Source of the DNA: Nostoc sp.
GTDB taxonomy: Bacteria > Cyanobacteriota > Cyanobacteriia > Cyanobacteriales > Nostocaceae
Reading direction: 5' to 3'
Length of the DNA: 64,000 nt
Assembly (NCBI RefSeq): GCF_036917135.1
Contig: NZ_JBALEA010000089.1
Span: 47,974-111,973, forward strand
Shown in pieces: positions 4,489 through 17,320 of this stretch; position 1 is the stretch's first letter; the number at the start of each line of letters is the position of its first letter. The position numbers and the translations under genes were made by a program. The notes beneath the pieces are model-generated. The model saw only the letters and a program-made list of their open reading frames with translations, had not been told where the DNA came from and made no database searches.

Positions 4489-5097
4489 CTATACCTTGTT
4501 ATCAGTCGAAATATCTAACTTGATCCCACCTTGCCGCAAAATCTGCCAATTGATCCCTGTCCATTTAGCAACGGTGGAAGGTACACCCATCCCCCGCATT
4601 TCACCTTGGCATTCTGTTGTTGCTAAAGTCAAAACCTGGGGAAACTGAGTCTGAATTTCTGCGATCGTTTGCAAAGGCGGTTGACCGGAAAAATTGGCGC
4701 TAGTGGTAGCAAGAGGGCCTGTTTGAGTCAGAATAGATTGAGCGATCGCACTGTTTGGGACTCGAATCCCAATTGTCGTTGGATCAATAGGGTTCATAAC
4801 TTTTGGCACGCGATCGCTTGCTGGTAAAACTAACGTCACCCCTCCTGGCCAATATTTATCTGTTAATTCTTGCCATATTTTATACTCGTTCTCATCACCT
4901 TTGACATAAGGCCACAAATCTCCAGCATTAGCAGCCATCAAAATCAAAGGTTTGTCTTGACTGCGTTGTTTAGCCGTAAAAATTAATCCGGCTTTTTCTG
5001 GTATCGCCGCAAGTGCAGGAACCGTATCCGTGGGAAAGCTCACCAAAAGGCCGGCCTGTGCGCCAGCTATTAGGTCTGTGAGGGAAACTTGCGTCAT
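4489..5097 (-). CDS. tsaC: L-threonylcarbamoyladenylate synthase (Sua5/YrdC)
   Basis: SFPTDTV, KQRSQDKPL, GIRVP, PLATTSANFSG motifs. Confidence 0.93.
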   Translation of the reverse strand: MTQVSLTDLIAGAQAGLLVSFPTDTVPALAAIPEKAGLIFTAKQRSQDKPLILMAANAGDLWPYVKGDENEYKIWQELTDKYWPGGVTLVLPASDRVPKVMNPIDPTTIGIRVPNSAIAQSILTQTGPLATTSANFSGQPPLQTIAEIQTQFPQVLTLATTECQGEMRGMGVPSTVAKWTGINWQILRQGGIKLDISTDNKV

Positions 5098-5174
5098 CTT
5101 ACTAAGTAAGTCGGGGAGAACAATTTAATATATATTTTGATTTGAGCTTAAATCAAATTCTTGCATAAGTTAGG

Positions 5175-5205
5175 CAAAAGGGAAAAGGAATCAAAATCCT
5201 TTCCC
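5175..5205 (-). terminator. Probable intrinsic terminator downstream of the cluster
   Basis: Minus strand reads GGGAAAGGA-loop-TCCTTTTCCC followed by TTTT. Confidence 0.55.
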
Positions 5206-5309
5206 CCATTTTTGCATAAATATATTTATGCAAGATGTCTAATATTTATCAACCAGTAGCACGGTATTTAATTACTTGGTTAAATCTTGAAAAAGAGATG
5301 CTCAAATAA

Positions 5310-5431
5310 GGGACTTCCAAATAAAAAAATATCCCAAAACTGACGCAAAAATCTTCTCTATTTCTCCTATCTCTGTGTTATCTGCGTCTCTGTGGTTCGT
5401 TCATTTGGATAATTTATTTCTTGAAAGTCCC
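5310..5431. mobile_element. MITE-like element, 122 bp, GGGACT...AGTCCC termini, 3-bp TAA target duplication
   Basis: Imperfect terminal inverted repeats gggacttccaaataaaaaaatatccc / tggataatttatttcttgaaagtccc; TAA at 5307-5309 and 5432-5434. Confidence 0.75.
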
Positions 5432-5468
5432 TAAGAGTCTTATACATCTTCCAAAATTTAGACTAAAA

Positions 5469-6428
5469 TCAGCTAGCAGTTTTTTTCGCTTCAATCATTC
5501 CGAGTGTGGGAACTTTAACATCCCAAGCTAAACCTAATACTTCCAGAGTGTGGATTAACCAGTACCCTAAATCAACTTGCCACCATTGCAACCCAAACTT
5601 TGCCGAGTTAGGAAAAGCATGATGATTATTATGCCATGCTTCTCCTCCTGTAGGAATTGCCAGCCAAACATTATTAGTACTCTGCTCACTACTATTGAAG
5701 GGGCGACTGCCATACAGATGACTAATGGAATTAATAGTCCAAGTTAAATGATGCACTACAAAAATTCGCACAAGTCCTCCCCACAAAAGTCCTTGCCATA
5801 TACCTATCCAAGTACCTGATAAAAGTCCTCCAAGAATAGCTGGAATCAAAAGACCTAAAAAGACCAGAACTAGGTATTGTTGGTTGACTTTTTTTATCAC
5901 AGGGTCTTGCAGCAAATCCTTCGCAAACACTGTAGAATTTGTGATTTCGCAGTTAAGCATCCAACCAATATGGCTATACCATATTCCGTTTAACCTTCCC
6001 CAAAATCCTCCTTGGTGAAGGTTGGGTGAATGAGTATCTCCTATCTGGTCACTGTATTGATGATGGCGCCTATGATTGCTCACCCAATTAATAACAGGTC
6101 CTTGAGCCGCCATAGAACCTAAGATAGCCAAACCAACTCGAACAGATGGGTGGGTTTTAAAAGTGCAGTGAGATAAAACCCGATGAAAACCTACAGTAAT
6201 CCCTCCGACCATAGTGAGAAACCAGAAGACCAAAAGCAATGCTAATTCCATGAGATTAATTCCAAAATCCCAAGCGAATTTGAGCGCTATCATTGTCCCG
6301 ATCAAAGGAATTATGATTGTGGCTATAGCAAAACGCCTTTGTACTTGTTGTAAGTAATCATTTTGGATTATTATCTTTGTTGTTTTACTTAAAGTCGCCA
6401 AACCATGACTTTGATTGTCTAACTGCAT
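5469..6428 (-). CDS. Membrane-bound fatty acyl desaturase A (delta-9-like fold, JamB-like context)
   Basis: His boxes HRVLSH, HRRHH, HNNHH; 319 aa; paralog of 8038-8997. Confidence 0.92.
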   Translation of the reverse strand: MQLDNQSHGLATLSKTTKIIIQNDYLQQVQRRFAIATIIIPLIGTMIALKFAWDFGINLMELALLLVFWFLTMVGGITVGFHRVLSHCTFKTHPSVRVGLAILGSMAAQGPVINWVSNHRRHHQYSDQIGDTHSPNLHQGGFWGRLNGIWYSHIGWMLNCEITNSTVFAKDLLQDPVIKKVNQQYLVLVFLGLLIPAILGGLLSGTWIGIWQGLLWGGLVRIFVVHHLTWTINSISHLYGSRPFNSSEQSTNNVWLAIPTGGEAWHNNHHAFPNSAKFGLQWWQVDLGYWLIHTLEVLGLAWDVKVPTLGMIEAKKTAS

Positions 6429-6484
6429 TAGGTTCTACATCCTCCTTAAATCTTGTCTTCACTATTAACTTCGTACCATTTGGC

Positions 6485-7720
6485 TTAGGTGTAAATGGTG
6501 AAGGGTGGGATTTGTTCGTTGAGTACCCAGTCACCAACTTCGTGGACTTTGTAAACAACTGGATCGTGCAGAGTATGAGTACGGACATTGCGCCAGAAGC
6601 GATCAAAGCGATATTTTGTCGCAGTAGCACGAGTTCCCATCACTTCAAAAATCTTGCTTGTCACTTCTAATGCCACTCGTGTAGTCAAGACTTTGGCAGT
6701 GCTAATAATAACAGCAGTTTCACCGCGTTCGGTGGCTGTCAGGTCTTCTCCCTTTTCCCAGGCAGATTGGAAGACCGAGTTGACATAATCAACATGGCTG
6801 ATGGTTGAAATCAAACTCACCCAGAGATTACCGTATTGCTCAATAATATAAGGATCTTTAGCTGCCGTGTGGGCAGGTGAAAAAATCCAGGGACGGCTTC
6901 CAGATAGTGTATATTGCTTGCCTTCCTCAAAGGCACCTAGTGCAATTCCCAGATAGAAATTGACAAAGACGGACTGGAAAGCAGGAGTTACCAATGAGGC
7001 AAAGGAGCTAGGCGCATCTTTAGAGTTAGGATTGCCCAGAATCTCATCTCGGTGAATCAAGACATTATTAAAAGTGACGCTACCGCTATCGGTTTGTCGC
7101 TGTCCAATGTAATCCCAATCGTCATTGAGAACCACTCCTTCTCGATGGGTGGGAACAATGGCAATGGGAAGATTCTCCACAGCTTCCCGATGCTTGGCAA
7201 CAATGCTAACGGGAAGATTCTCTACATATCCTCGCGCTGCTGTCACTACAATAATGTCGGAGCCAGTACTGCCTGTGGCAAAGTTTTTAGTACCATTGAG
7301 CCGGAAATTTTTTCCATCTGCTGTTAGCACCAATTTAGGATCTCGCGGATTAACAGCATCACCCCAAAACCAGTTGTTGCGAGTAGTTTCGCTGTAGAAT
7401 CGGGCTTTTTGTTCGGGAGTACCATTTAGTTCAGGGATGACAGAATTGACATAGTGGTATCCCAAAAGTTGACCAAGGGAGCCATCCGCTTTGGCAATTT
7501 CTCGTACAACTTTGAGGGCTGTAACCCAACTTTGACCAAATCCACCATATTGTTCTGGGATCAGGAGTTTAAGCAGACCACTTTCTCGCAGACGATTTAG
7601 TTCGGCAGTCGGACTACCACCTTTGGCATCCCGTTCGACTGCTGTTTTAGCAAACTCCTTTCCTAATGACGCAGCTAGAGCAATGTAGTCTTTTGTTTCT
7701 TGTAAGGTAGATAAAACCAT
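6485..7720 (-). CDS. Acyl-CoA dehydrogenase-fold flavin-dependent monooxygenase, DszC/SfnB type
   Basis: DDWDYIGQRQTDSGSV and C-terminal FDRFWRNVRTHTLHDP motifs typical of DszC/SfnB. Start set at ATG 7720 (GGAG 9 nt upstream); the ORF extends to 7735. Confidence 0.85.
   Translation of the reverse strand: MVLSTLQETKDYIALAASLGKEFAKTAVERDAKGGSPTAELNRLRESGLLKLLIPEQYGGFGQSWVTALKVVREIAKADGSLGQLLGYHYVNSVIPELNGTPEQKARFYSETTRNNWFWGDAVNPRDPKLVLTADGKNFRLNGTKNFATGSTGSDIIVVTAARGYVENLPVSIVAKHREAVENLPIAIVPTHREGVVLNDDWDYIGQRQTDSGSVTFNNVLIHRDEILGNPNSKDAPSSFASLVTPAFQSVFVNFYLGIALGAFEEGKQYTLSGSRPWIFSPAHTAAKDPYIIEQYGNLWVSLISTISHVDYVNSVFQSAWEKGEDLTATERGETAVIISTAKVLTTRVALEVTSKIFEVMGTRATATKYRFDRFWRNVRTHTLHDPVVYKVHEVGDWVLNEQIPPFTIYT
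7136..7225 (-). repeat. In-frame 2 x 45-bp tandem duplication inside the monooxygenase
   Basis: VENLPVSIVAKHREA / VENLPIAIVPTHREG, visible at DNA level. Confidence 0.9.
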
Positions 7721-7751
7721 TTTCAGCATCTCCATAAAATTCGTACTAAAA

Positions 7752-8012
7752 CTATTCGCTTAAATGTTGTGCAAGAGATGCGATCGTCGGGTAATCCCAA
7801 ACTAGCCTTAGCTCTAGCTCTTTTCCTAGCCAATCTGCTAAATCTCCGGTTAAAACCACCGCTACCGATGAATCTAAACCATAACGGGCAAAAGTGGTTT
7901 CTACATTTACTTCTTCGGGTTCGATTTCTAGCAAATCTGCTAGATAAGAAATCAACCATTCTTTGATTTCTGTAGTAGATACTTTCAAAGTTTCAGTTTT
8001 TTGAGAAAGCAT
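7752..8012 (-). CDS. Stand-alone acyl carrier protein
   Basis: YGLDS phosphopantetheine Ser motif, DYPTIASLAQHL C-terminus; GGAGG RBS upstream of ATG 8012; 86 aa. Confidence 0.93.
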   Translation of the reverse strand: MLSQKTETLKVSTTEIKEWLISYLADLLEIEPEEVNVETTFARYGLDSSVAVVLTGDLADWLGKELELRLVWDYPTIASLAQHLSE

Positions 8013-8037
8013 ACATCCTCCAAAATTTAGACTAAAA

Positions 8038-8997
8038 TCAGCTAGCAGTTTTTTTCGCTTCAATCATTCCGAGTGTGGGAACTTTAACATCCCAAGCTAA
8101 ACCTAATACTTCCAGAGTGCGGATTAACCAGTACCCTAAATCAACTTGCCACCATTGCAACCCAAACTTTGCTGAGTTAGGAAAAGCATGATGATTGTTA
8201 TGCCATCCTTCTCCTCCTGTAGAAATTGCCAGCCAAACATTATTAGTACTCTGTTCACTAGTATTCAAAGGGCGACTACCATACAGATGAACAATGGAGT
8301 TAAGACACCAAGTTAAATGATGGACTACAAAAATTCGCACAAGCCCTCCCCACAAAAATCCTTGCCCTACACCTATCCAAGTACCTGATAAAAGTCCTCC
8401 AAGAATAGCTGGAATCAAAAGACCTAAAAAAACGAAAATTAGGTATTGTTGATTGACTTTTTTCATCACAGGGTCTTGCAGCAAATCCTTCGCAAACACT
8501 GTAGTATTTGTGATTTCGCCGTTAAGTATCCAGCCAACATGGCTATGCCACATTCCCCTTAACTTTCCCCAAGATTCTCCTTGATAAAGGTTGGGTGAAT
8601 GAGTATCTCCTATCTGGTCGCTATATTGATGATGTCGTCTATGATTGCTCACCCAATTAATCACAGGGCCTTGAGCCGCCATAGAACCCAAGATAGCCAA
8701 AGCAACTCGCACAGATGGGTGGGTCTTAAAAGCACAGTGACATAAAAGCCGATGATTACCTACAGTCACCCCGCCAATCATTGTGAGAAACCAGAAAACC
8801 AAAAGCAGTTCTAATTCCATGAGATTAATTCCAAAATCCCAAGCGAATTTCAGCGCTATCAGTGTCCCGATCAAAGGAATAACGATCGTGGCTGCGGCTA
8901 ACCGCTTTTGTACTGTTTGTAAGTAATCATTTTTGATTGTGATTTTTGCTTCTTTAGTTGAAGTCAACAAAGAAGGATTTTGATTATTTAACTGCAT
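8038..8997 (-). CDS. Membrane-bound fatty acyl desaturase B (delta-9-like fold, JamB-like context)
   Basis: His boxes HRLLCH, HRRHH, HNNHH; 319 aa; directly upstream of the ACP. Confidence 0.92.
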   Translation of the reverse strand: MQLNNQNPSLLTSTKEAKITIKNDYLQTVQKRLAAATIVIPLIGTLIALKFAWDFGINLMELELLLVFWFLTMIGGVTVGNHRLLCHCAFKTHPSVRVALAILGSMAAQGPVINWVSNHRRHHQYSDQIGDTHSPNLYQGESWGKLRGMWHSHVGWILNGEITNTTVFAKDLLQDPVMKKVNQQYLIFVFLGLLIPAILGGLLSGTWIGVGQGFLWGGLVRIFVVHHLTWCLNSIVHLYGSRPLNTSEQSTNNVWLAISTGGEGWHNNHHAFPNSAKFGLQWWQVDLGYWLIRTLEVLGLAWDVKVPTLGMIEAKKTAS

Positions 8998-9029
8998 GAG
9001 CTTTTACATCCTCATTCAATCCTTTAAAA

Positions 9030-10637
9030 TTAGGCTTTTTTACAGAGATATTCATCCAGTTCATCTTCTTCTCCAGCTAAACCTTGCTCGATATCACCAA
9101 TTTTTTCGGCATACTGATTAATCAGACTTTCTACCTGATTAATATCTAGTAAAGTCTGAGCATAGATATTTCCTGTAAGAGCATTAGCTATCTTTGCCTG
9201 AAAATATTGTTGACCCCAATTTTCGACACGTTGTAATTCATCTGTCGGTTCACTTTGATATGACTTTTGTATGCAAGCAACCACAAATGCCCATGCAGCT
9301 ACATCACCCAATTTCTGGGATAATATTTTACTTAATTTCTTATTACTGTTCCCAGAGAGGTTTTTCTTTTTGAGGTAAGAAGCACAAGTTTCAGCCGTCT
9401 GTTGCAATTGTTCGCTGATTTTTGTCGCTCCCAAAAACTCATTAAGAGATGAAAAGACTTGAGGTGTTTGGTATAAAGTTAATAAACCCAAATGCATCTG
9501 TAAAGTTTCAGTTGGCCCCTCAAAAATCCGAAATAAACGAGCATCCCGTAAGATTTGGGGCGCAATATTAGATTCGATATAACCCCGTCCACCTAGTAGC
9601 TGAACTAGATTATCTGCTGCTTGCCACATTAATTCGGGGGCGATAATCTTAGCGACAAGATAAGCTTCTAAAGGAACAGGTTTCTCTTCATCTAGGGATG
9701 TTGCAATGGTTTTCACCAAGCACTCAACTGCACCAATTGCTGCTGTTAAATCACTCAGACGTTGTAAAGTAATCTGTTGATTTATTAGCCGTTCTATACC
9801 AATTGAGCGACGGGTAGCATAACGAAGCATGAGTTGGGCACAATGTTTCATTCCGCCAATACAGGTGGCAGAAATTCCCAATCTCGCTAGTTGCATTGCG
9901 TCCTGGGCTACTTCAAAACCAGAACCAATTTCGCCTAAAACATTTTCATGATTGACTTTTACCTGCTCAAGGTGAATAGTATTCTGAACCATACCTCGCA
10001 TTCCCATCGTCAGAGCTTCAGTACCTTGCCTCAATCCTTGAGCATTTTCGGGAATGGTAAATGCTGTGATTCCCAAAGAGTCGCCTTGTTCATCTACAAC
10101 ATGAGCAAAAATATTGATCGCGCTTGACCAAGATGCAGAACCGCTCCAAATTTTGGTGCCGCTAAGTAACCACCCACCACTTCCATCTGGATGGGCTTCA
10201 GCCTTGATTCCTCTAGGATTAGATCCGGCAGATGGTTCGGTAATGGCAAAGGCTGCTAAATCTCTCCCTTGGGCTAAATTCTGGAGATAGGTTTCTTTAA
10301 TCTCAGGTGTACCATGCTTAAGAATTGGGTAGATTCCGAGAAAATTGTTTACACCAACAAATGAAGCTAAGTTGAGATCAATAGCTGCAAGTTGTTCCAT
10401 CACTTGCAACATATCACTGTAACTTAAGCCAAGACCCCCGCATGATTGAGGCACAATCATTCCCAACAAACCTTTTTTGCCAAAGTCTAGAACGACGTGA
10501 GGAGTTATACACCGTCGCTCGTCCATAAGTCTAGAATTGATTCGTCTTTGGGCATAGTCACGTAACCAATGGATGACTTGCTCTGCACGTTGACGACTTG
10601 AACTTTCTAAAGACTGACTTTGACTATTGAACTGCAT
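9030..10637 (-). CDS. Acyl-CoA/acyl-ACP dehydrogenase
   Basis: AFAITEPSAGSN, LSGTKIWSGS, QLLGGRGY, RIFEGPTE (catalytic Glu position); extended C-terminus. Confidence 0.9.
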   Translation of the reverse strand: MQFNSQSQSLESSSRQRAEQVIHWLRDYAQRRINSRLMDERRCITPHVVLDFGKKGLLGMIVPQSCGGLGLSYSDMLQVMEQLAAIDLNLASFVGVNNFLGIYPILKHGTPEIKETYLQNLAQGRDLAAFAITEPSAGSNPRGIKAEAHPDGSGGWLLSGTKIWSGSASWSSAINIFAHVVDEQGDSLGITAFTIPENAQGLRQGTEALTMGMRGMVQNTIHLEQVKVNHENVLGEIGSGFEVAQDAMQLARLGISATCIGGMKHCAQLMLRYATRRSIGIERLINQQITLQRLSDLTAAIGAVECLVKTIATSLDEEKPVPLEAYLVAKIIAPELMWQAADNLVQLLGGRGYIESNIAPQILRDARLFRIFEGPTETLQMHLGLLTLYQTPQVFSSLNEFLGATKISEQLQQTAETCASYLKKKNLSGNSNKKLSKILSQKLGDVAAWAFVVACIQKSYQSEPTDELQRVENWGQQYFQAKIANALTGNIYAQTLLDINQVESLINQYAEKIGDIEQGLAGEEDELDEYLCKKA

Positions 10638-12489
10638 TAGCTTTTGCGCCCTCCTGAATATTTACTTTTTGAGAATCAGGATTATCTTGCTGCACTTTTA
10701 CTAAGAGTGAGTTGACATCAACTTCCAACTTGTGAAACTGGGCTTGATGCTGAAGAGTTCCACTACAGTGCGCCACCACATTCAAACTGCCATCTAGAAA
10801 CCCACGCCGACAGGCATGACGCTGAATTTTCCCGCTAGATGTCTTGGGAATACTCCCAGGTTTAATTAAAACTGTGGCATACACTTGTAAACCGTGATTA
10901 TCTACAACTGCTTCAGTGATATTGCCGACGACTTCTTGAATATCCAACCGCCTTAAATAGGTTCGTTCTACCTCTTGAACAACAATTAATCGCTGTTGTC
11001 CCTTCTGATCTACAGTGAAAGCTGCTCCACAATGCGATCGCAATGCTGGATGACTTTTTTGCACTGTTAACTCAATATCCTGGGGATAATGATTTTGTCC
11101 TCGGATGATAATCACATCTTTTAGTCGTCCGGTAACAAATAGTTCGCCATCTTGCAAAAATCCCAAGTCACCCGTGCAAAGAAACGGCCCTTCTCCTGTA
11201 TCCCCCAGATAACTTTGAAAAGTTTCCGCAGTTTTTTCTGGTTGGTTCCAATAGCCACCAGCCACAGAAGAACCTGATACCCAAATCTCTCCCACCTTCC
11301 CAGGAGGACACTGAGTTAAAGATTCGCGATCGACAATGACGATTTTTTCATCTAACCAGGTGCGACCACAGCCCACAATTGTTTTAGTTCCTTCCCCAGA
11401 TTCAGCCGCCACCACCTGATTTTCCTCAAGGGCTGCTGCTTCAACTTGGTACAGAATCGGCGAAGCTGTTTTTAAACCTCCAGAAACGAATAAAGTTGCC
11501 TCAGCCATCCCGTAACAGGGATAAAATGCTTCTCGACGGAAACCACAAGGAGCGAAATAGTTAGCAAATAGCTCCATTGTCTCGGCACGGACTGGTTCGG
11601 CTCCATTGAAAGCGACTTCCCAACTGCTTAAATCAAGACTAGAAAGCTGTTCGGGAGTAATCTTGCGAACGCACAAATCGTAAGCAAAATCTGGCCCGCC
11701 GCTAGTAGTGGCTTTGTAACGAGAAATAGCTTGCAACCAGGAAAAAGGCTTTTGCAGGAAAGCTACTGGTGACATCAAAATAGACGGGATACCCAAATAT
11801 AGAGGCTGCAAAACGTTCCCAATCAGACCCATATCGTGGAATAAGGGTAACCAACCGACAAAAATTGTTTTATCTGTATGTCCGAAACCCATTCTGATGG
11901 ATCTCTGGTTGCACAGTAAATTTCCATGAGTGATCATCACTCCCTTCGGCGTTCCCGTAGAGCCTGAAGTGTATTGCAGAAATGCCAGAGTGTCTCTCTC
12001 TAGTCTTGGTTTTTGCCAATCTGAACTGAGATTGCTGTCAATGCAATCAGTATTTAACCAGCGCATAGTTGCCAATTCTGGATTTTCGACCGTTAACAAA
12101 GATTTTGTGGTCAAGACTATCTTGGCTTGGGCATCTTTAGCGATCGCCTGCAACCTGAGCAAGTTCATATTGGCTCGGGGTGGATAAGCGGGAACGGCGA
12201 TAACACCCGCATATAAACAGCCAAAGAAGGCGCTAATGAATTCTAATCCCGGTGGATACAACAGCAAAGCCCGTTCGCCAGGAGATACTAGAGACTGAAG
12301 ATGGGTAGCGAGCGATCGCGCTTGCAGGTCTAATTCTCCATAAGTCAGGCTGTTTTCTTCAGTTTCTCCATCTTTGAGAAATATATAAGCCCTTTGCTGA
12401 GGCTGATTTTTAGCTCTGTAGCTGAGTAATTCTATTAAATTTGAAAATTTGTCAAGAGGGTTTTGGAGATCAGCCAAACAAATAGTCAT
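10624..12489 (-). CDS. Fatty acyl-AMP ligase (FAAL)
   Basis: LQYTSGSTGTPKGV, WLPLFHDMGLIG, YPCYGMAEATL followed by the FAAL-type insertion, GRLKDVIIIRG, PKTSSGKIQR. Confidence 0.93.
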   Translation of the reverse strand: MTICLADLQNPLDKFSNLIELLSYRAKNQPQQRAYIFLKDGETEENSLTYGELDLQARSLATHLQSLVSPGERALLLYPPGLEFISAFFGCLYAGVIAVPAYPPRANMNLLRLQAIAKDAQAKIVLTTKSLLTVENPELATMRWLNTDCIDSNLSSDWQKPRLERDTLAFLQYTSGSTGTPKGVMITHGNLLCNQRSIRMGFGHTDKTIFVGWLPLFHDMGLIGNVLQPLYLGIPSILMSPVAFLQKPFSWLQAISRYKATTSGGPDFAYDLCVRKITPEQLSSLDLSSWEVAFNGAEPVRAETMELFANYFAPCGFRREAFYPCYGMAEATLFVSGGLKTASPILYQVEAAALEENQVVAAESGEGTKTIVGCGRTWLDEKIVIVDRESLTQCPPGKVGEIWVSGSSVAGGYWNQPEKTAETFQSYLGDTGEGPFLCTGDLGFLQDGELFVTGRLKDVIIIRGQNHYPQDIELTVQKSHPALRSHCGAAFTVDQKGQQRLIVVQEVERTYLRRLDIQEVVGNITEAVVDNHGLQVYATVLIKPGSIPKTSSGKIQRHACRRGFLDGSLNVVAHCSGTLQHQAQFHKLEVDVNSLLVKVQQDNPDSQKVNIQEGAKANAVQ

Positions 12490-12579
12490 AAGCCAATTTC
12501 ACAGTTTACACAGTAACGTCATCTGTATGTATGGGTTTGTCAGCTACGAGTCTGTCAATAAATAATTGATAAATTCCCT

Positions 12580-12606
12580 GTAGAGACGGCGATTTTTCGC
12601 GTCTCT
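12580..12606. repeat. GTAG-type REP-like hairpin between the AOS and FAAL genes
   Basis: gtagagacggcgatttttcgcgtctct: GTAG start, stem agagac/gtctct with inner gcga/tcgc. Confidence 0.6.
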
Positions 12607-12621
12607 CTAACCGTCAACGAT

Positions 12622-13986
12622 TTATCGAATGATGCCTAATTCACGATCCAATTTTTGGAAAACGTGAATAAATGTATCTAAATCTTCACGTGTATGGGTT
12701 GCCATGACACTGATTCGGAGTCTTTGGGCATTGAGGGGAACAGCAGGGTACTCGACCGAATTCACAAAGATGCCTTCTTGGTGAAATCTCCAGGCAAGAG
12801 TGCGAATTTCGACTTCAGACGGGATTCTCACTGGTATAATTGCAGAGTCGCTGCTGGTTTGGAATCCTGCCGCTTGCAGTTGCTGCAATAAGTAAGTGCT
12901 ATTGGCTCGAAGTTGACTAACACGCTCCGGCTCCCGCTCAATGATATCTAGACCTGCCAAGATAGCCGCAACAACAGGAGCAGGCAAAGATGCCGAGAAC
13001 ATATAAGACCGAGCAAAGAAGCGCAGATACTCGATTACCTCACGACTGGCAGCGATGAAGCCGCCTGTGACACCCAATGCCTTACTGAAAGTCCCCATCG
13101 TGACATCAATTCGACCTTTCAGACCAAAGTGTTCATCAGTGCCACCGCCCTTTTTACCCATAACACCAGTGCCGTGTGCATCATCCACGACAAGAATAGC
13201 CCCGTAATCGTCGCAAAGTTCACGAATTGCTGGGAGTGCAGCTAAATCGCCATCCATCGAATATACGCCTTCTATAGCCACATAGATTAATCGATTTGAT
13301 GCTCCTCCAACTTGCTTGCATTTGATCAGACGCTGTTCGAGGTCATCACAATCATTATGCTTGAAGCTAAAAGCGCGAACGCTGGAACCCATAGAGACAA
13401 GCTTAATGGCATCATAAAGACTGGCATGGCTTAACTCGTCGCAGATTAAAACATCATCATCACGTAACAGACCATTAACCCACCCTAACTGTGCCTGAAA
13501 TCCACTGGCAAAAAGGAGAGCATCTTCTGCGCCTTTGAACTGGGCTATACGAGCTTCAAGTTGGCGATGGAGGCTACTCATGCCATTGAGTAGAGGTGGT
13601 CCACCCATACCAACACCAAATTCTTCAATAGCTCGTTTTGCTGCTTCTCGAACATAGGGATGGGTGGTCAATCCCAGGTAGTTATTTGATCCGAACATCA
13701 GCATTGACCTGATTTCACCAGTGAGCGGATCTTTAATCAGAGTTCGATTTTCAATCGGCCCAACGACCTCACGAGGAAAATAGGTGAGCATACAGGCATT
13801 GGGACCGATAGAGGCATTTGGTGTATGCAACCAATTAGAGCAAGGTTTCACGCGCTCCGCTAAGGATGAACCAATCGTTGGGAAAAAATCTTTGAAGGAA
13901 AAATTCTCGGCATGGCTGCTGGTATCCGGTGCAACCCATATATTCCTAACATCTTCTGGGAATTTATTAGTCTGTTTACTTAACAT
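12622..13986 (-). CDS. PLP-dependent alpha-oxoamine synthase (serine palmitoyltransferase/BioF/KBL family)
   Basis: MFGSNNYLGL, SHASL, EGVYSMDGD, DDAHG, GTFSKALG (Schiff-base Lys); long N-terminal extension. Confidence 0.92.
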   Translation of the reverse strand: MLSKQTNKFPEDVRNIWVAPDTSSHAENFSFKDFFPTIGSSLAERVKPCSNWLHTPNASIGPNACMLTYFPREVVGPIENRTLIKDPLTGEIRSMLMFGSNNYLGLTTHPYVREAAKRAIEEFGVGMGGPPLLNGMSSLHRQLEARIAQFKGAEDALLFASGFQAQLGWVNGLLRDDDVLICDELSHASLYDAIKLVSMGSSVRAFSFKHNDCDDLEQRLIKCKQVGGASNRLIYVAIEGVYSMDGDLAALPAIRELCDDYGAILVVDDAHGTGVMGKKGGGTDEHFGLKGRIDVTMGTFSKALGVTGGFIAASREVIEYLRFFARSYMFSASLPAPVVAAILAGLDIIEREPERVSQLRANSTYLLQQLQAAGFQTSSDSAIIPVRIPSEVEIRTLAWRFHQEGIFVNSVEYPAVPLNAQRLRISVMATHTREDLDTFIHVFQKLDRELGIIR

Positions 13987-14052
13987 TGTGAACTCTAACC
14001 TAGATTTATTTCTCTGTTTTTAGCAAAGCAAACTAACCGCTTAAGTCTTTTA

Positions 14053-14175
14053 GGGACTTCCAAGAAATAAATTATTCATCTTGTGGGGTGGGCATCCTGC
14101 CCGCCCTGAATATAGGACGGGTGAGGACACCCATCCCACAAGAAAATTTGGGATGTTTTTTTATTTGGAAGTCCC
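14053..14175. mobile_element. MITE-like element, 123 bp, same ends as 5310-5431 but in opposite orientation, TTA target duplication
   Basis: gggacttccaagaaataaatt ... ttttttatttggaagtccc; TTA at 14050-14052 and 14176-14178. Confidence 0.8.
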
Positions 14176-15027
14176 TTAAGCAATAGACCTCTTGTGTGAA
14201 TCAGATTATGAACTGCTCAACAGATAAGTCGCTAGTTTGTGAGTATGCATTTTTTCTAATAGTCAATCGCACAGTTTCATTGCATTTTTTTCACAAAATC
14301 TATATCTACTTTATTGGTGAAGACATTGAGAATAGCAAGCAGTTTTTATCTGAGTAAAGGCTCTCTTAAGACTTTTTTGTGTTTTTTATATGCAGTACTT
14401 TAAAAAGTACTCGCACACCAAGAAAACTGCTCAAAATGATTTCACTAAAGAATGGAAATTAGCAAATAAATATCATCAATTACTTTTTATGTAGAGCAAT
14501 CTTATTTGAAGTGTGAGCATCCTAAAATCAGAGAAAATCAACATTTTCTCGGTTTTTATAAAGCATTTAAGATTGCTGTGTAATATTAATCTAACGAGGA
14601 GTACCAGTTGGCCAATATTGTAACCAATTTTCAACTTTAAACATGATTTTAGCTGGAAGAGAAGACATACAAATAGAAAAGCCCTTCTCTAGTGAAAGAT
14701 TAAGCACTAAAAGTTTTTCCTCTGATCTAAACGTATCAATATCTAAATCTTTTTGGATGTGTTGGAAATCTGGATTAGAGTGAATTTTCAATCCGAGATT
14801 AAAGCTACCACTATTTAGATTTTGTTGTCAATCAACAAAAGCTAAATAAAATGAGTTAAACAAGATGTTTAGATAAAAATATATAGGTAGATATAGATAC
14901 AGAATCTCACTAGATATATCACAAGCACATAAGTTGTTACGACAAATTGCCGATGCAATTGATAATATTAGAGTGATATTGGAATAGCTAAAACAGATGG
15001 AGATAGCCAAATTGAGTAAGGGAAACC

Positions 15028-15918
15028 CTAACTTCTATAAGCTAGGGCGAAGCGTTCAATTCCAGCTAAATCAGCGTGAATTTGAATATTGCAATAATTA
15101 CCTTGATTTTGCAAAAGTTCTCGCACTCCATCGGCCTGTCCAGCCATCATCTCAATCAGCCACACGCCACCCGATCGCAAATAACTAGGTGAAATTTCTA
15201 CCAAATTCCGAATGCAATCTAAGCCATCAGCGCCACCATCCAAAGCTAGATGCGGTTCATGGTTAACTACTTCTGGCTGCAAAGTAGGTAAGATGCTGGT
15301 GGGGATGTAAGGAGGGTTGGAAACCATACCACTGAACTGACCTTTTAACAATGCCAGTGGCTCCCACCAGGAACCTTGATAAAATTTAATCCGGTCAGCA
15401 AAACCCAAATCATCGGCGTTGGCTTGGGCGATCGCCAGAGCTGCTAAACTGTAATCCACTGCATGAATTGTTGCGTTTGGCAAGGCATCTGCTAATCCGA
15501 TGGCGATCGCACCACTCCCAGTACCCAAATCCGCCCAATGTCCTGAAGCATTTGCGAACAATGCTTTCGCCAAATCAATTAAGCACTCTGTCTCTGGTCT
15601 GGGAATCAAAACCGCACTCGACACCGCAATTTTAAAATTACGCCAAGGTGTAACACCCGCAATATACTGCACTGGTAAGCGATCGTTTAATCGCCTCTGC
15701 CAAAGATGGTCTAACTCTACTAGAGGCAATTGCATCTGAATTTGCGGCGAGTTTTTAAAAGACTCCAAACGTAGTGCCAAGCGGTCTAATCCAGCCACCT
15801 CTATAAGTAGCCAGTCTACCTCCCTTGGTGGAACATCAGTGGCGATCGCTGCTTGGATAGCTACATTTCGCCACTGCCAAAGTTGTAAACCAGAAACTAT
15901 CAGATGTTTCTCTTCCAT
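15028..15918 (-). CDS. prmC: Release factor glutamine methyltransferase (HemK)
   Basis: PVQYIAG, LIPRPETE, DLGTGSGAIA, SNPPY, LALDGGADGL. Confidence 0.96.
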   Translation of the reverse strand: MEEKHLIVSGLQLWQWRNVAIQAAIATDVPPREVDWLLIEVAGLDRLALRLESFKNSPQIQMQLPLVELDHLWQRRLNDRLPVQYIAGVTPWRNFKIAVSSAVLIPRPETECLIDLAKALFANASGHWADLGTGSGAIAIGLADALPNATIHAVDYSLAALAIAQANADDLGFADRIKFYQGSWWEPLALLKGQFSGMVSNPPYIPTSILPTLQPEVVNHEPHLALDGGADGLDCIRNLVEISPSYLRSGGVWLIEMMAGQADGVRELLQNQGNYCNIQIHADLAGIERFALAYRS

Positions 15919-17246: not shown

Positions 17247-17320
17247 TCGGGATGACAGGATTTGAACCTGCGGCATCCTGCTCCCAAAGCAGGCGCGCTA
17301 CCAAGCTGCGCTACATCCCG
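17247..17320 (-). tRNA. trnP: tRNA-Pro (anticodon TGG), CCA not encoded
   Basis: Cloverleaf cgggatg acceptor stem, anticodon arm cctgc-TTTGGGA-gcagg, GGTTCAAATCC T-arm. Confidence 0.97.

What the first reader, a model, noticed from the sequence alone, without database searches (positions are those of the whole stretch)
12622..13986. Alpha-oxoamine synthase as probable chain-release enzyme, with an altered substrate loop
Seen: all PLP motifs are intact (SHASL, DDAHG, TFSK), but the usual GxGGSRLL loop reads GMGGPPLLNG, and about 70 residues precede the MFGSNNYLGL motif. It is the first gene of the operon and no thioesterase is present. Inference: it accepts the modified acyl-ACP and an atypical amino donor. 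If the donor were sulfur-containing (Met, Cys, or SAM as in CqsA), that would explain the DszC-like S-oxygenase in the same operon; this link is speculative.
Basis: partly seen in the sequence, partly recalled or inferred. Interest (0 to 1): 0.72.

Follow-up and report, generated by a model that had tools for sequence, protein, structure and literature searches.

The report
Odd-loop oxoamine synthase in Nostoc lipid island
This gene encodes an intact PLP-dependent condensing enzyme from a large, unstudied branch of the serine-palmitoyltransferase/BioF family; in a few Nostoc strains it heads a mobile seven-gene island that most likely joins a desaturated fatty acid to an amino acid to make an unknown amino lipid.

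Summary
The observation largely holds. The ORF at 12622-13986 (minus strand, 454 aa) is an intact alpha-oxoamine synthase (AOS). Its usual G-S-R loop reads GGPPLLNG. It is the first gene of a seven-gene operon that has no thioesterase. One detail is wrong: 96 residues, not about 70, precede MFGSNNYLGL.

The Pro-Pro loop and the N-terminal motif are not special to this operon. They are invariant in a monophyletic, uncharacterised AOS clade found in hundreds of species (Bdellovibrionota, Ignavibacteriota, Bacteroidota, Rhodothermota, Nocardia, Burkholderiales). That clade is distinct from BioF, KBL, SPT, ALAS, CqsA and SulA. Elsewhere it sits next to a lipid kinase and a ThiL-like kinase, not a DszC-like enzyme.

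In Nostoc the gene lies in a 9.9-kb island inserted between prmC and sua5, together with a JamABC-type FAAL/desaturase/ACP cassette. A FAAL-ACP-AOS fusion in another bacterium supports acyl-ACP off-loading by this clade.

Published SPT structures place the two prolines on the amino-acid side of the active site, so an unusual amino substrate is plausible for the whole clade. The sulfur link stays speculative. It is not baseless, because the nearest relatives of the DszC-like gene sit in sulfur-scavenging clusters.

Verdict: a new variant of a known kind, of moderate interest.

The parts
12622..13986 (-). Alpha-oxoamine synthase (454 aa) of the uncharacterised 'Pro-Pro loop' clade
   Evidence: Pfam Aminotran_1_2, 1.4e-53. 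Below every NCBIfam equivalog cut-off. AlphaFold pLDDT 87 with an AOS fold. The clade is monophyletic, SH-aLRT 99.
13882..13914 (-). Clade-specific N-terminal motif H25-AENFSFKDFF-35, preceded by about 24 disordered residues
   Evidence: E27 is invariant and N28/F29 are nearly invariant in alignment A1. The motif is absent from the SPT, KBL and BioF references. pLDDT is below 50 for residues 1-25.
13582..13617 (-). Glycine-rich loop G124-VGMGGPPLLN-G135, with P130-P131 in place of Ser-Arg
   Evidence: It is equivalent to the SmSPT Ala79-Asn85 loop that lines the amino-acid pocket (PMC10196870).
13261..13263 (-). Y242 (EGVYSMDGD), where the SPT, KBL and BioF references have Phe
   Evidence: 100% conserved in the clade. 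Tyr is also present in the characterised SPT PfSgaB.
13081..13083 (-). K302, the Schiff-base lysine of the TFSK motif
   Evidence: Aligned to SmSPT Lys244. Invariant in A1.
12751..12753 (-). E412 (VEYPAVP), a clade-specific Glu at the column where both BioFs have Arg
   Evidence: 98% conserved in the clade. References: V in SmSPT, F in KBL, R in both BioFs. Its equivalence to SpSPT Arg378 is from my memory of that sequence. The role of Arg378 is from PMC6148460.
10624..12489 (-). Fatty acyl-AMP ligase (621 aa)
   Evidence: Pfam AMP-binding plus DIP2-like C-terminal domain. Best NCBIfam hits are FAAL families. 56-63% identical to the FAALs of cyanobacterial FAAL-desaturase-ACP cassettes.
9030..10637 (-). 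VLCAD-like acyl-CoA-dehydrogenase-fold protein (535 aa), likely an acyl-ACP dehydrogenase; dispensable
   Evidence: All three ACAD domains are present. Best PDB hits are VLCAD and ACAD9. The sequence has IFEG where ACADs carry the catalytic Glu motif (the motif's role is from memory). Reduced to a 51-aa remnant in the L114 version of the cluster. Precedent: NocC and NocI (PMC9486936).
8038..8997 (-). Membrane fatty-acid desaturase 1 (319 aa)
   Evidence: Pfam FA_desaturase. 48-60% identical to the desaturases in FAAL-Des(x1-4)-ACP cassettes of other cyanobacteria.
7752..8012 (-). Acyl carrier protein (86 aa from the internal Met; the ORF extends to 8063)
   Evidence: Pfam PP-binding, 9.8e-17. 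The L114 orthologue is called as 86 aa. A GLDSS motif is visible in the sequence.
6485..7735 (-). DszC/MsuC/SfnB-family flavin monooxygenase (416 aa) with a 15-aa tandem duplication
   Evidence: PDB MsuC and DszC, about 342 bits. Y96, H388 and H391 equivalents are kept, H92 is Q and S163 is T. The insert is found only in cluster-linked copies. The closest homologues sit in sulfur-scavenging clusters.
5469..6428 (-). Membrane fatty-acid desaturase 2 (319 aa), 84% identical to desaturase 1
5098..15027 (.). 9.9-kb accessory island between sua5/tsaC (4489-5097) and prmC (15028-15918)
   Evidence: prmC and sua5 lie 67-90 bp apart in eight other same-genus genomes. The AOS clade is present in only 5 of 401 sampled Cyanobacteriota genomes.

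Best explanation
The gene encodes a functional PLP-dependent alpha-oxoamine synthase. It belongs to a widespread, uncharacterised clade of the AOS family. The clade is marked by a Pro-Pro replacement of the Ser-Arg in the glycine-rich loop, by Glu412, and by an N-terminal ENFS(L/F)xDF motif.

A few Nostoc strains acquired the gene horizontally as part of a 9.9-kb island. Proposed pathway in that island:
1. The FAAL adenylates a free fatty acid and loads it on the dedicated ACP.
2. One or both membrane desaturases introduce double or triple bonds on the ACP-bound chain. In some versions of the cluster the VLCAD-like dehydrogenase also acts.
3. The AOS forms the external aldimine with an amino acid and attacks the acyl-ACP thioester. 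Decarboxylative Claisen condensation then releases an unsaturated alpha-amino ketone lipid. The AOS thus does the job of a thioesterase or a downstream PKS.
4. The DszC-family flavin monooxygenase then oxygenates the product.

Shown here: gene content, clade membership, intact catalytic residues, island status, purifying selection, and a FAAL-ACP-AOS fusion in the clade.

Inferred: substrate order, chain length, the amino donor and the site of oxygenation. The Pro-Pro loop is an ancestral clade feature. It most likely alters how the amino-acid substrate is bound. It is not an adaptation to this operon.
For: AOS identity and integrity:
- Family assignment and intact PLP residues.
- Confident AOS-fold model.
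- dN/dS of 0.09 for the AOS and 0.15-0.30 for the other genes against L005.

Distinct clade:
- All equivalog cut-offs are missed.
- A true BioF lies elsewhere in the genome, at 465 bits against a 426-bit cut-off.
- The Pro-Pro clade is one side of a branch, SH-aLRT 99.
- An AU test rejects grouping with BioF, p = 3.9e-5.

Link between the clade and a FAAL:
- L059 is a single ORF of AMP-binding, PP-binding and a Pro-Pro-loop AOS.
- A FAAL lies near the AOS in 18 Nocardia loci and in 2 of the 3 other cyanobacterial-phylum loci.

Cluster cohesion:
- The same genes in the same order occur in L004, L005, L007 and L114, and L114 is at a different genomic site.
- The island is inserted between prmC and sua5.

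Cassette homology:
- FAAL-Des(x1-4)-ACP cassettes occur in six other cyanobacterial genomes, and PKS genes lie near two of them.

Precedents:
- Acyl-ACP-using AOS enzymes: AasR/AcpR/Spt (PMC9386255), SulA (PMC9304779), PfSgaAB (PMC12134224).
- Acyl-ACP dehydrogenases NocC and NocI (PMC9486936).
Against: - No biochemical or expression data.
- Outside Nostoc the clade mostly sits beside a lipid kinase and a ThiL-like protein, with no FAAL or ACP in the same locus. Acyl-ACP use is therefore not shown for the clade as a whole.
- The AOS is separated from the FAAL gene by 132 bp, the largest gap in the operon.
- No flavin reductase, ketoreductase, N-acyltransferase or exporter is encoded, so the final product cannot be predicted.
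- Promoter and terminator scans were uninformative.
Confidence: 0.65

Rival explanations
1. The AOS uses a sulfur-containing amino donor (Cys, Met, cysteine sulfinate, or SAM as in CqsA), and the DszC-like enzyme S-oxygenates the resulting lipid. The product would be, for example, a sulfoxide, sulfone or capnine-like sulfonate lipid.
For: - The best characterised relatives of the DszC-like protein all oxidise organosulfur compounds: MsuC, DszC and TdsC at about 320-344 bits.
- Its closest non-cluster homologues (68-72% identity) are paired with DszA-size luciferase-like monooxygenases. Two of them also lie near TauD or sulfonate-type ABC transporters.
- The Pro-Pro loop and E412 lie on the amino-acid side of the active site (PMC10196870, PMC4525017, PMC6148460).
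Against: - The loop and E412 are clade-wide, and no DszC-like neighbour occurs outside Nostoc.
- The SulA signature lysine (K281') is Ala332 here (PMC9304779).
- CqsA-type HMM score is 187 against a 428-bit cut-off, and the PDB CqsA hit is only 93 bits.
- No cysteate or sulfinate synthesis gene lies in the island.
- The cluster copy of the monooxygenase has diverged by about 30% and gained a 15-aa insert, so its substrate may have changed.
- ACAD-fold monooxygenases also N-hydroxylate amines (from my knowledge; not tested here).
Confidence: 0.17
2. The AOS keeps the ancestral, still unknown function of its clade. That would be making a long-chain base for a membrane or phospholipid-like lipid from ordinary acyl-CoA or acyl-ACP. 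On this view it is only a passenger next to an independent FAAL/desaturase/ACP cassette.
For: - Most clade members lack a FAAL, ACP or desaturase neighbour.
- A 132-bp gap separates the AOS from the FAAL gene.
Against: - The usual partners of the clade (YegS-type kinase, ThiL-like protein, PPDK-like protein and others) have no close homologue in this genome.
- The AOS always travels with the other six genes, even to a different genomic site.
- It is the most constrained gene of the island.
- Without it the cassette has no off-loading enzyme.
Confidence: 0.12
3. It is a housekeeping BioF or KBL paralogue.
For: BioF and KBL HMMs give high but sub-threshold scores: 358 against 426, and 365 against 460.
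Against: - A bona fide BioF lies on contig C48.
- An AU test rejects a BioF grouping, p = 3.9e-5.
- The gene is present in only 5 of 401 sampled Cyanobacteriota genomes.
- It lies on an accessory island.
Confidence: 0.02

Closest known systems
AasR / AcpR / Spt module of Caulobacter and other Proteobacteria (PMC9386255)
   Same: A dedicated adenylating enzyme loads a free fatty acid on a dedicated ACP. An AOS-family enzyme then condenses acyl-ACP with an amino acid and releases the aminoketone.
   Different: - This AOS is in a separate clade: SPT HMM scores are 250-371 against cut-offs of 500-670.
- It has Pro-Pro instead of Ser-Arg.
- The loader is a FAAL.
- Desaturases and a DszC-like oxygenase act in the pathway.
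- No bCerS or CerR genes are present.
JamABC / TtuABC terminal-alkyne cassettes and bacterial polyyne desaturase triads (PMC8341276, PMC9828172)
   Same: FAAL, membrane desaturase(s) and ACP encoded together and acting on ACP-bound chains. Cyanobacterial homologues are 41-63% identical.
   Different: The acyl-ACP is consumed by a stand-alone AOS. JamABC feeds a PKS/NRPS line (PMC8341276). That polyyne clusters use a thioesterase is from my memory. Whether these desaturases make alkenes or alkynes is unknown.
SulA / CapB cysteate acyl-ACP transferase (PDB 7u7h; PMC9304779)
   Same: An AOS that uses acyl-ACP and a sulfur-containing amino acid.
   Different: Only 195 bits. The Lys281' signature is Ala332 here.
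PfSgaAB, PKS-derived sphingolipids (PMC12134224)
   Same: A stand-alone AOS off-loads a carrier-bound chain inside a small secondary-metabolite cluster. It shares Tyr in the EG(V/I)YSMDGD motif.
   Different: 35% identity, a Ser-Arg loop, and outside the Pro-Pro clade. The chain comes from an iterative PKS.
S. multivorum SPT and E. coli KBL (PDB 3a2b/8guh, 1fc4)
   Same: Best sequence and fold matches: 255-271 bits; 34-37% identity, target-normalised TM-score 0.89-0.94. All PLP and catalytic residues are shared.
   Different: P130, P131 and E412 differ. This protein also has an N-terminal extension of about 50 residues carrying a conserved motif.

Membership tests
Alpha-oxoamine synthase superfamily (fold-type I PLP) | PLP lysine; stacking His; Asp to the pyridine N1; His to O3'; Asn and Arg for the substrate carboxylate | tested here: met
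   K302, H187, D268, H271, N101 and R424, aligned to SmSPT and read with PMC10196870 and PMC9304779. AOS fold at target-normalised TM-score 0.86-0.94 among the top 16 PDB hits.
BioF (8-amino-7-oxononanoate synthase) | Score above the TIGR00858 cut-off; groups with BioF in a tree | tested here: not met
   358 bits against a 426-bit cut-off. The genome's own BioF scores 465. AU test p = 3.9e-5 against a BioF grouping.
KBL (glycine C-acetyltransferase) | Score above the NF005394 or TIGR01822 cut-off | tested here: not met
   365 against 460 and 311 against 493. E. coli Kbl and its relatives form a separate clade. No tdh neighbour.
Bacterial serine palmitoyltransferase | Score above one of the three SPT equivalog cut-offs; Ser-Arg in the glycine-rich loop | tested here: not met
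   371 against 640, 325 against 500, and 250 against 670. The loop is Pro-Pro. The SmSPT group is a separate clade, SH-aLRT 98.
CqsA / LqsA autoinducer synthases | Score above the NF005526 cut-off | tested here: not met
   187 against 428. PDB CqsA hit is only 93 bits.
5-aminolevulinate synthase | Score above the TIGR01821 cut-off; Thr-Arg in the loop | tested here: not met
   240 against 339. The loop is Pro-Pro.
SulA / CapB cysteate acyltransferase | Lys281' in place of the Spt alanine after the FS motif (PMC9304779) | tested here: not met
   A332 is invariant in alignment A1. 195 bits to 7u7h.
PKS-embedded or PKS-associated AOS (Fum8, SxtA, PigH, PfSgaB) | Fusion to, or adjacency with, a PKS; grouping with such domains in a tree | tested here: inconclusive
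   No PKS in the island. PfSgaB falls outside the clade.
Pro-Pro-loop AOS clade (defined here) | GGPP[L/I]LNG loop, EGVYSMDGD, (V/I)E(Y/F/A)PAVP, N-terminal ENF(S/D)L motif | tested here: met
   All four features are present. The protein nests inside the clade.
JamABC-type cassette (for the neighbouring genes) | FAAL, membrane desaturase and ACP encoded together and homologous to such cassettes | tested here: met
   FAAL 56-63%, desaturase 48-60% and ACP 41-56% identical to six cyanobacterial FAAL-Des-ACP cassettes. Acetylenase activity is not testable with these tools.

The most novel reading that the evidence does not exclude
The Pro-Pro/Glu412 AOS clade binds a non-canonical amino substrate. 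Its changed active site removes the Ser-Arg of the loop, and Pro has no backbone N-H to donate. It also puts a Glu at the column where both BioFs have Arg and where, from my memory of that sequence, S. paucimobilis SPT has its carboxylate-binding Arg378. In lichen-type Nostoc the enzyme would then couple that substrate, possibly a sulfur-bearing one, to an alkyne- or polyene-bearing acyl-ACP. A recruited DszC-family enzyme would S-oxygenate the product, giving a new class of sulfur-oxidised, unsaturated amino lipids.
Probability: 0.15. Interest if true: 0.8.

Novelty: new variant of a known kind. Interest (0 to 1): 0.58.

Why it matters
- AOS enzymes set the head group of sphingolipids, sulfonolipids, biotin, haem precursors and several signals and toxins.
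- This work defines a large AOS clade with no characterised member found here, present in hundreds of species. Its substitutions sit on the amino-acid side of the active site. It also has its own conserved partners, a lipid kinase and a ThiL-like kinase.
- The Nostoc island is a compact seven-gene, 8.5-kb test bed. It pairs that enzyme with a JamABC-like cassette, so heterologous expression could reveal the clade's amino substrate.
- Expression could also reveal a new unsaturated, possibly clickable, amino lipid from Nostoc strains. The strain and MAG names suggest lichen symbionts, but I did not verify that.

Tried and rejected
- Nocuolin (noc) cluster as a match: it has FAALs, an ACP and acyl-ACP dehydrogenases but no AOS. 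I kept it only as a precedent for the ACAD-like gene.
- Literature searches for AOS + FAAL + cyanobacteria, and for SPT + Nocardia, found nothing relevant.
- Rfam found only a tRNA at 17247-17320 and no riboswitch upstream of the AOS.
- Promoter and terminator scans gave fewer hits than shuffled sequence.
- Does the clade replace SPT? None of 12 clade-bearing genomes reaches the CFB-SPT cut-off. Seven of them do have a separate paralogue that groups with SmSPT. The clade is therefore not simply 'the SPT' of those genomes.
- PfSgaB as a possible characterised member: it is 35% identical, has a Ser-Arg loop, and falls outside the clade.
- Earlier-findings look-ups by place and by sequence returned nothing.
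Full report
**1. What is at the coordinates**

ORF 12622-13986 (minus strand, ATG start, 454 aa) matches Pfam Aminotran_1_2 (1.4e-53).
- Motif positions: MFGSNNYLGL starts at residue 97, GMGGPPLLNG at 126, SHASL at 186, DDAHG at 268, TFSK at 299.
- I aligned the protein to Sphingobacterium multivorum SPT and read the alignment with the residue roles in PMC10196870 and PMC9304779. All PLP and catalytic residues are present: N101, H187, S243, D268, H271, T299, S301, K302, S331/A332 and R424.
It is 96, of which about 50 are extra relative to SPT.
- The AlphaFold model, built on a 27-sequence alignment, has mean pLDDT 87. Residues 1-25 are disordered and the rest is ordered.
- The best fold matches are KBL, SPT and ThAOS, with target-normalised TM-scores of 0.89-0.94.

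**2. The operon and its island**

Seven co-directional genes run from 13986 down to 5469, with gaps from -14 to 132 bp. In order:
- AOS
- FAAL
- a VLCAD-like ACAD-fold protein
- membrane desaturase 1
- ACP
- a DszC/MsuC-family flavin monooxygenase
- membrane desaturase 2, 84% identical to desaturase 1

None of the seven has a thioesterase domain.

Evidence that the block is a mobile accessory island:
- prmC and sua5 flank the block. In eight other same-genus genomes they lie only 67-90 bp apart. The 9.9 kb between them here (5098-15027) is therefore an insertion.
- The same cluster occurs at the same site in three Nostoc MAGs and in one sampled genome.
- It also occurs at a different site in L114, next to AbiE and caspase-like genes.
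- L114 has lost the ACAD, leaving a 51-aa remnant. L005 has three desaturases and two ACPs.
- All genes are under purifying selection. The AOS is the most constrained, with dN/dS 0.09.

**3. The AOS belongs to a large uncharacterised clade**

- It scores below every NCBIfam equivalog cut-off:

| Family | Score (bits) | Cut-off (bits) |
|---|---|---|
| SPT | 371 | 640 |
| KBL | 365 | 460 |
| BioF | 358 | 426 |
| ALAS | 240 | 339 |
| CqsA type | 187 | 428 |

- The genome has a true BioF elsewhere, scoring 465 bits.
- Homologues at 45-60% identity and similar length are numerous. At least 576 stretches were found among species-representative genomes. They come from Bdellovibrionota, Ignavibacteriota, Bacteroidota, Rhodothermota, Calditrichota, Nocardia, Burkholderiales and others.
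- In trees with E. coli BioF and Kbl, the genome's own BioF, SmSPT, SPT-like and KBL-like paralogues and the characterised PfSgaB, the clade is one side of a branch with SH-aLRT 99.
- An AU test rejects putting the Nostoc sequences with BioF, p = 3.9e-5.
- GGPP[L/I]LNG is invariant in about 90 members.
- Four positions are at least 95% conserved in the clade and differ from all four named references (SmSPT, E. coli Kbl, E. coli BioF and the genome's own BioF): P130, P131, Y242 and E412. Tyr at 242 also occurs in PfSgaB.
- The N-terminal ENF(S/D)L motif is likewise clade-wide.
- Only 5 of 401 sampled Cyanobacteriota genomes carry the clade.
- The Nostoc sequences sit on a long stem. Their nearest relatives, at about 60% identity, are from a Bacteriovoracaceae MAG and unassigned contigs. 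This fits horizontal acquisition. The deeper branching is weakly supported.

**4. What the clade's neighbours say**

- Outside Nostoc the AOS lies next to a YegS-type lipid kinase in 60 of about 83 loci, and next to a ThiL-like AIRS protein in 48.
- A subset of loci adds NTP_transf_5, an Rph/PigC-like PPDK-type phosphotransferase, a HAD hydrolase and a thymidylate-kinase-like protein.
- The Nocardia loci also carry a FAAL; in L013 a P450 and an SDR are present as well.
- The Nostoc genome has no close homologue of these partners.
- A DszC-like neighbour occurs only in Nostoc.
- A FAAL accompanies the AOS in 18 Nocardia loci and in 2 of the 3 loci from the other cyanobacterial-phylum families.
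- In L059, AMP-binding, PP-binding and a Pro-Pro-loop AOS form a single ORF. This fusion is the best comparative evidence that enzymes of this clade accept FAAL-loaded acyl-ACP.

**5. The other genes**

- FAAL, desaturase and ACP are 56-63%, 48-60% and 41-56% identical to FAAL-Des(x1-4)-ACP cassettes in six other cyanobacterial genomes. PKS genes lie near two of these cassettes. This is the JamABC/TtuABC/polyyne layout (PMC8341276, PMC9828172). In the island the AOS takes the place of the downstream consumer.
- The ACAD-fold protein has IFEG where ACADs carry the catalytic-Glu motif; the role of that motif is from memory. It has a VLCAD-like C-terminal extension. NocC and NocI are experimental precedents for acyl-ACP dehydrogenases in cyanobacterial FAAL clusters (PMC9486936).
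- The DszC-like protein keeps the Y96, H388 and H391 equivalents of DszC.
- It belongs to a cyanobacterial subfamily with Gln at the H92 position. The non-cluster members of that subfamily (68-72% identity) are paired with a second ACAD-like gene and a DszA-size luciferase-like monooxygenase. In L115 a TauD gene and sulfonate-type ABC transporter genes lie nearby, and in L116 a sulfonate-type binding-protein gene.
- Only the cluster-linked copies carry a 15-aa tandem duplication.

**6. The loop**

- In SmSPT the Ala79-Asn85 loop of the partner subunit lines the amino-acid pocket. The backbone N-H and side chain of Ser81 bind the substrate carboxylate through water. The methyl group of L-Thr pushes on Gly80-Ser81 (PMC10196870).
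- In ALAS the equivalent Thr83 positions the succinyl carboxylate and directs amino-acid specificity (PMC4525017). The loop Arg is a structural salt-bridge partner (PMC8892079).
- Proline at both positions removes the Ser side chain, two backbone N-H donors and the Arg.
- E412 occupies the column where both BioFs have Arg. From my memory of the S. paucimobilis SPT sequence, this is also the position of Arg378, which swings in to bind the L-serine carboxylate (role from PMC6148460).
It is a property of the whole clade, though, and not of this operon. It cannot be what 'explains' the DszC-like gene.
- The SulA lysine signature for cysteate is absent: the position is Ala332 (PMC9304779).

**7. 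Verdict**

- Most likely (0.65): the AOS is the off-loading condensing enzyme of a FAAL/ACP/desaturase cassette and releases an unsaturated alpha-amino ketone lipid. That lipid is then oxygenated.
- The amino donor is unknown. A sulfur-containing donor is possible (about 0.17). The pedigree of the DszC-like gene supports it, and nothing in the AOS itself does.
- A passenger role (0.12) and a BioF or KBL role (0.02) are unlikely.
- The system is a new variant of a known kind, namely AOS off-loading from a dedicated loader and ACP, as in AasR/AcpR/Spt (PMC9386255), SulA and PfSgaAB.
- It uses an AOS clade for which I found no characterised member.

Noticed in passing
L001 1912-11368; L002 1690-11314; L008; L084; L085 7037-11320: Outside Nostoc, the Pro-Pro-loop AOS sits in a conserved module that I could not find described. 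A YegS-type lipid kinase and a ThiL-like AIRS protein lie directly upstream. NTP_transf_5, an Rph/PigC-like PPDK-type phosphotransferase, a HAD hydrolase and a thymidylate-kinase-like protein are often present too. In L085 a UbiA-type prenyltransferase is present. A lipid kinase followed by a phosphate kinase suggests a diphosphorylated long-chain base.
   Followed up: partly
L059 7535-11131: A single 1198-aa ORF fuses AMP-binding (FAAL-like), PP-binding (ACP) and a Pro-Pro-loop AOS. It branches at the base of the clade and lacks the Glu412 signature (it has Val).
   Followed up: partly
L013 71-15179 (Nocardia sp. CNY236; similar in the 17 other Nocardia loci): The Nocardia version of the module has two PPDK-like proteins, a thymidylate-kinase-like protein, FAAL, P450, AOS, NTP_transf_5, HAD, a lipid kinase and an SDR. 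It looks like a complete long-chain-base-type pathway in an actinomycete.
   Followed up: partly
window 6485-7735 (protein residues about 166-196): The DszC-like protein carries a 15-aa tandem duplication (VENLPVSIVAKHREA / VENLPIAIVPTHREG). The duplication is found only in cluster-linked copies and not in the 63-78% identical homologues elsewhere.
   Followed up: partly
L114 5749-6086; L005 15999-20508: The cluster varies between strains. L114 has lost the ACAD-like gene, leaving a 51-aa remnant, and sits at another genomic site next to AbiE genes. L005 has a third, more distant desaturase and a second ACP.
   Followed up: partly
window about 14080-14141: A near-perfect palindrome lies about 100 bp upstream of the AOS start. 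It belongs to a dispersed repeat family: one arm has 134 copies in the genome at up to 3 mismatches.
   Followed up: partly
L006 (CAZZZY010000865.1): A 3-kb contig binned as 'Acetobacteraceae' carries an AOS 88% identical to the Nostoc one. It is probably a mis-binned Nostoc contig.
   Followed up: no
L119 8603-12944; L120 904-5058: Two cyanobacterial genomes of the same family carry a FAAL followed by four tandem desaturases and an ACP. This polyyne-like array lies about 6 kb from a PKS ketosynthase gene in L119.
   Followed up: no
genome contigs C35 75652-76845 and C91 149175-150353: Two further DszC-family paralogues (48-49% identical to the island copy) lie elsewhere in the genome. Their contexts were not examined.
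   Followed up: no
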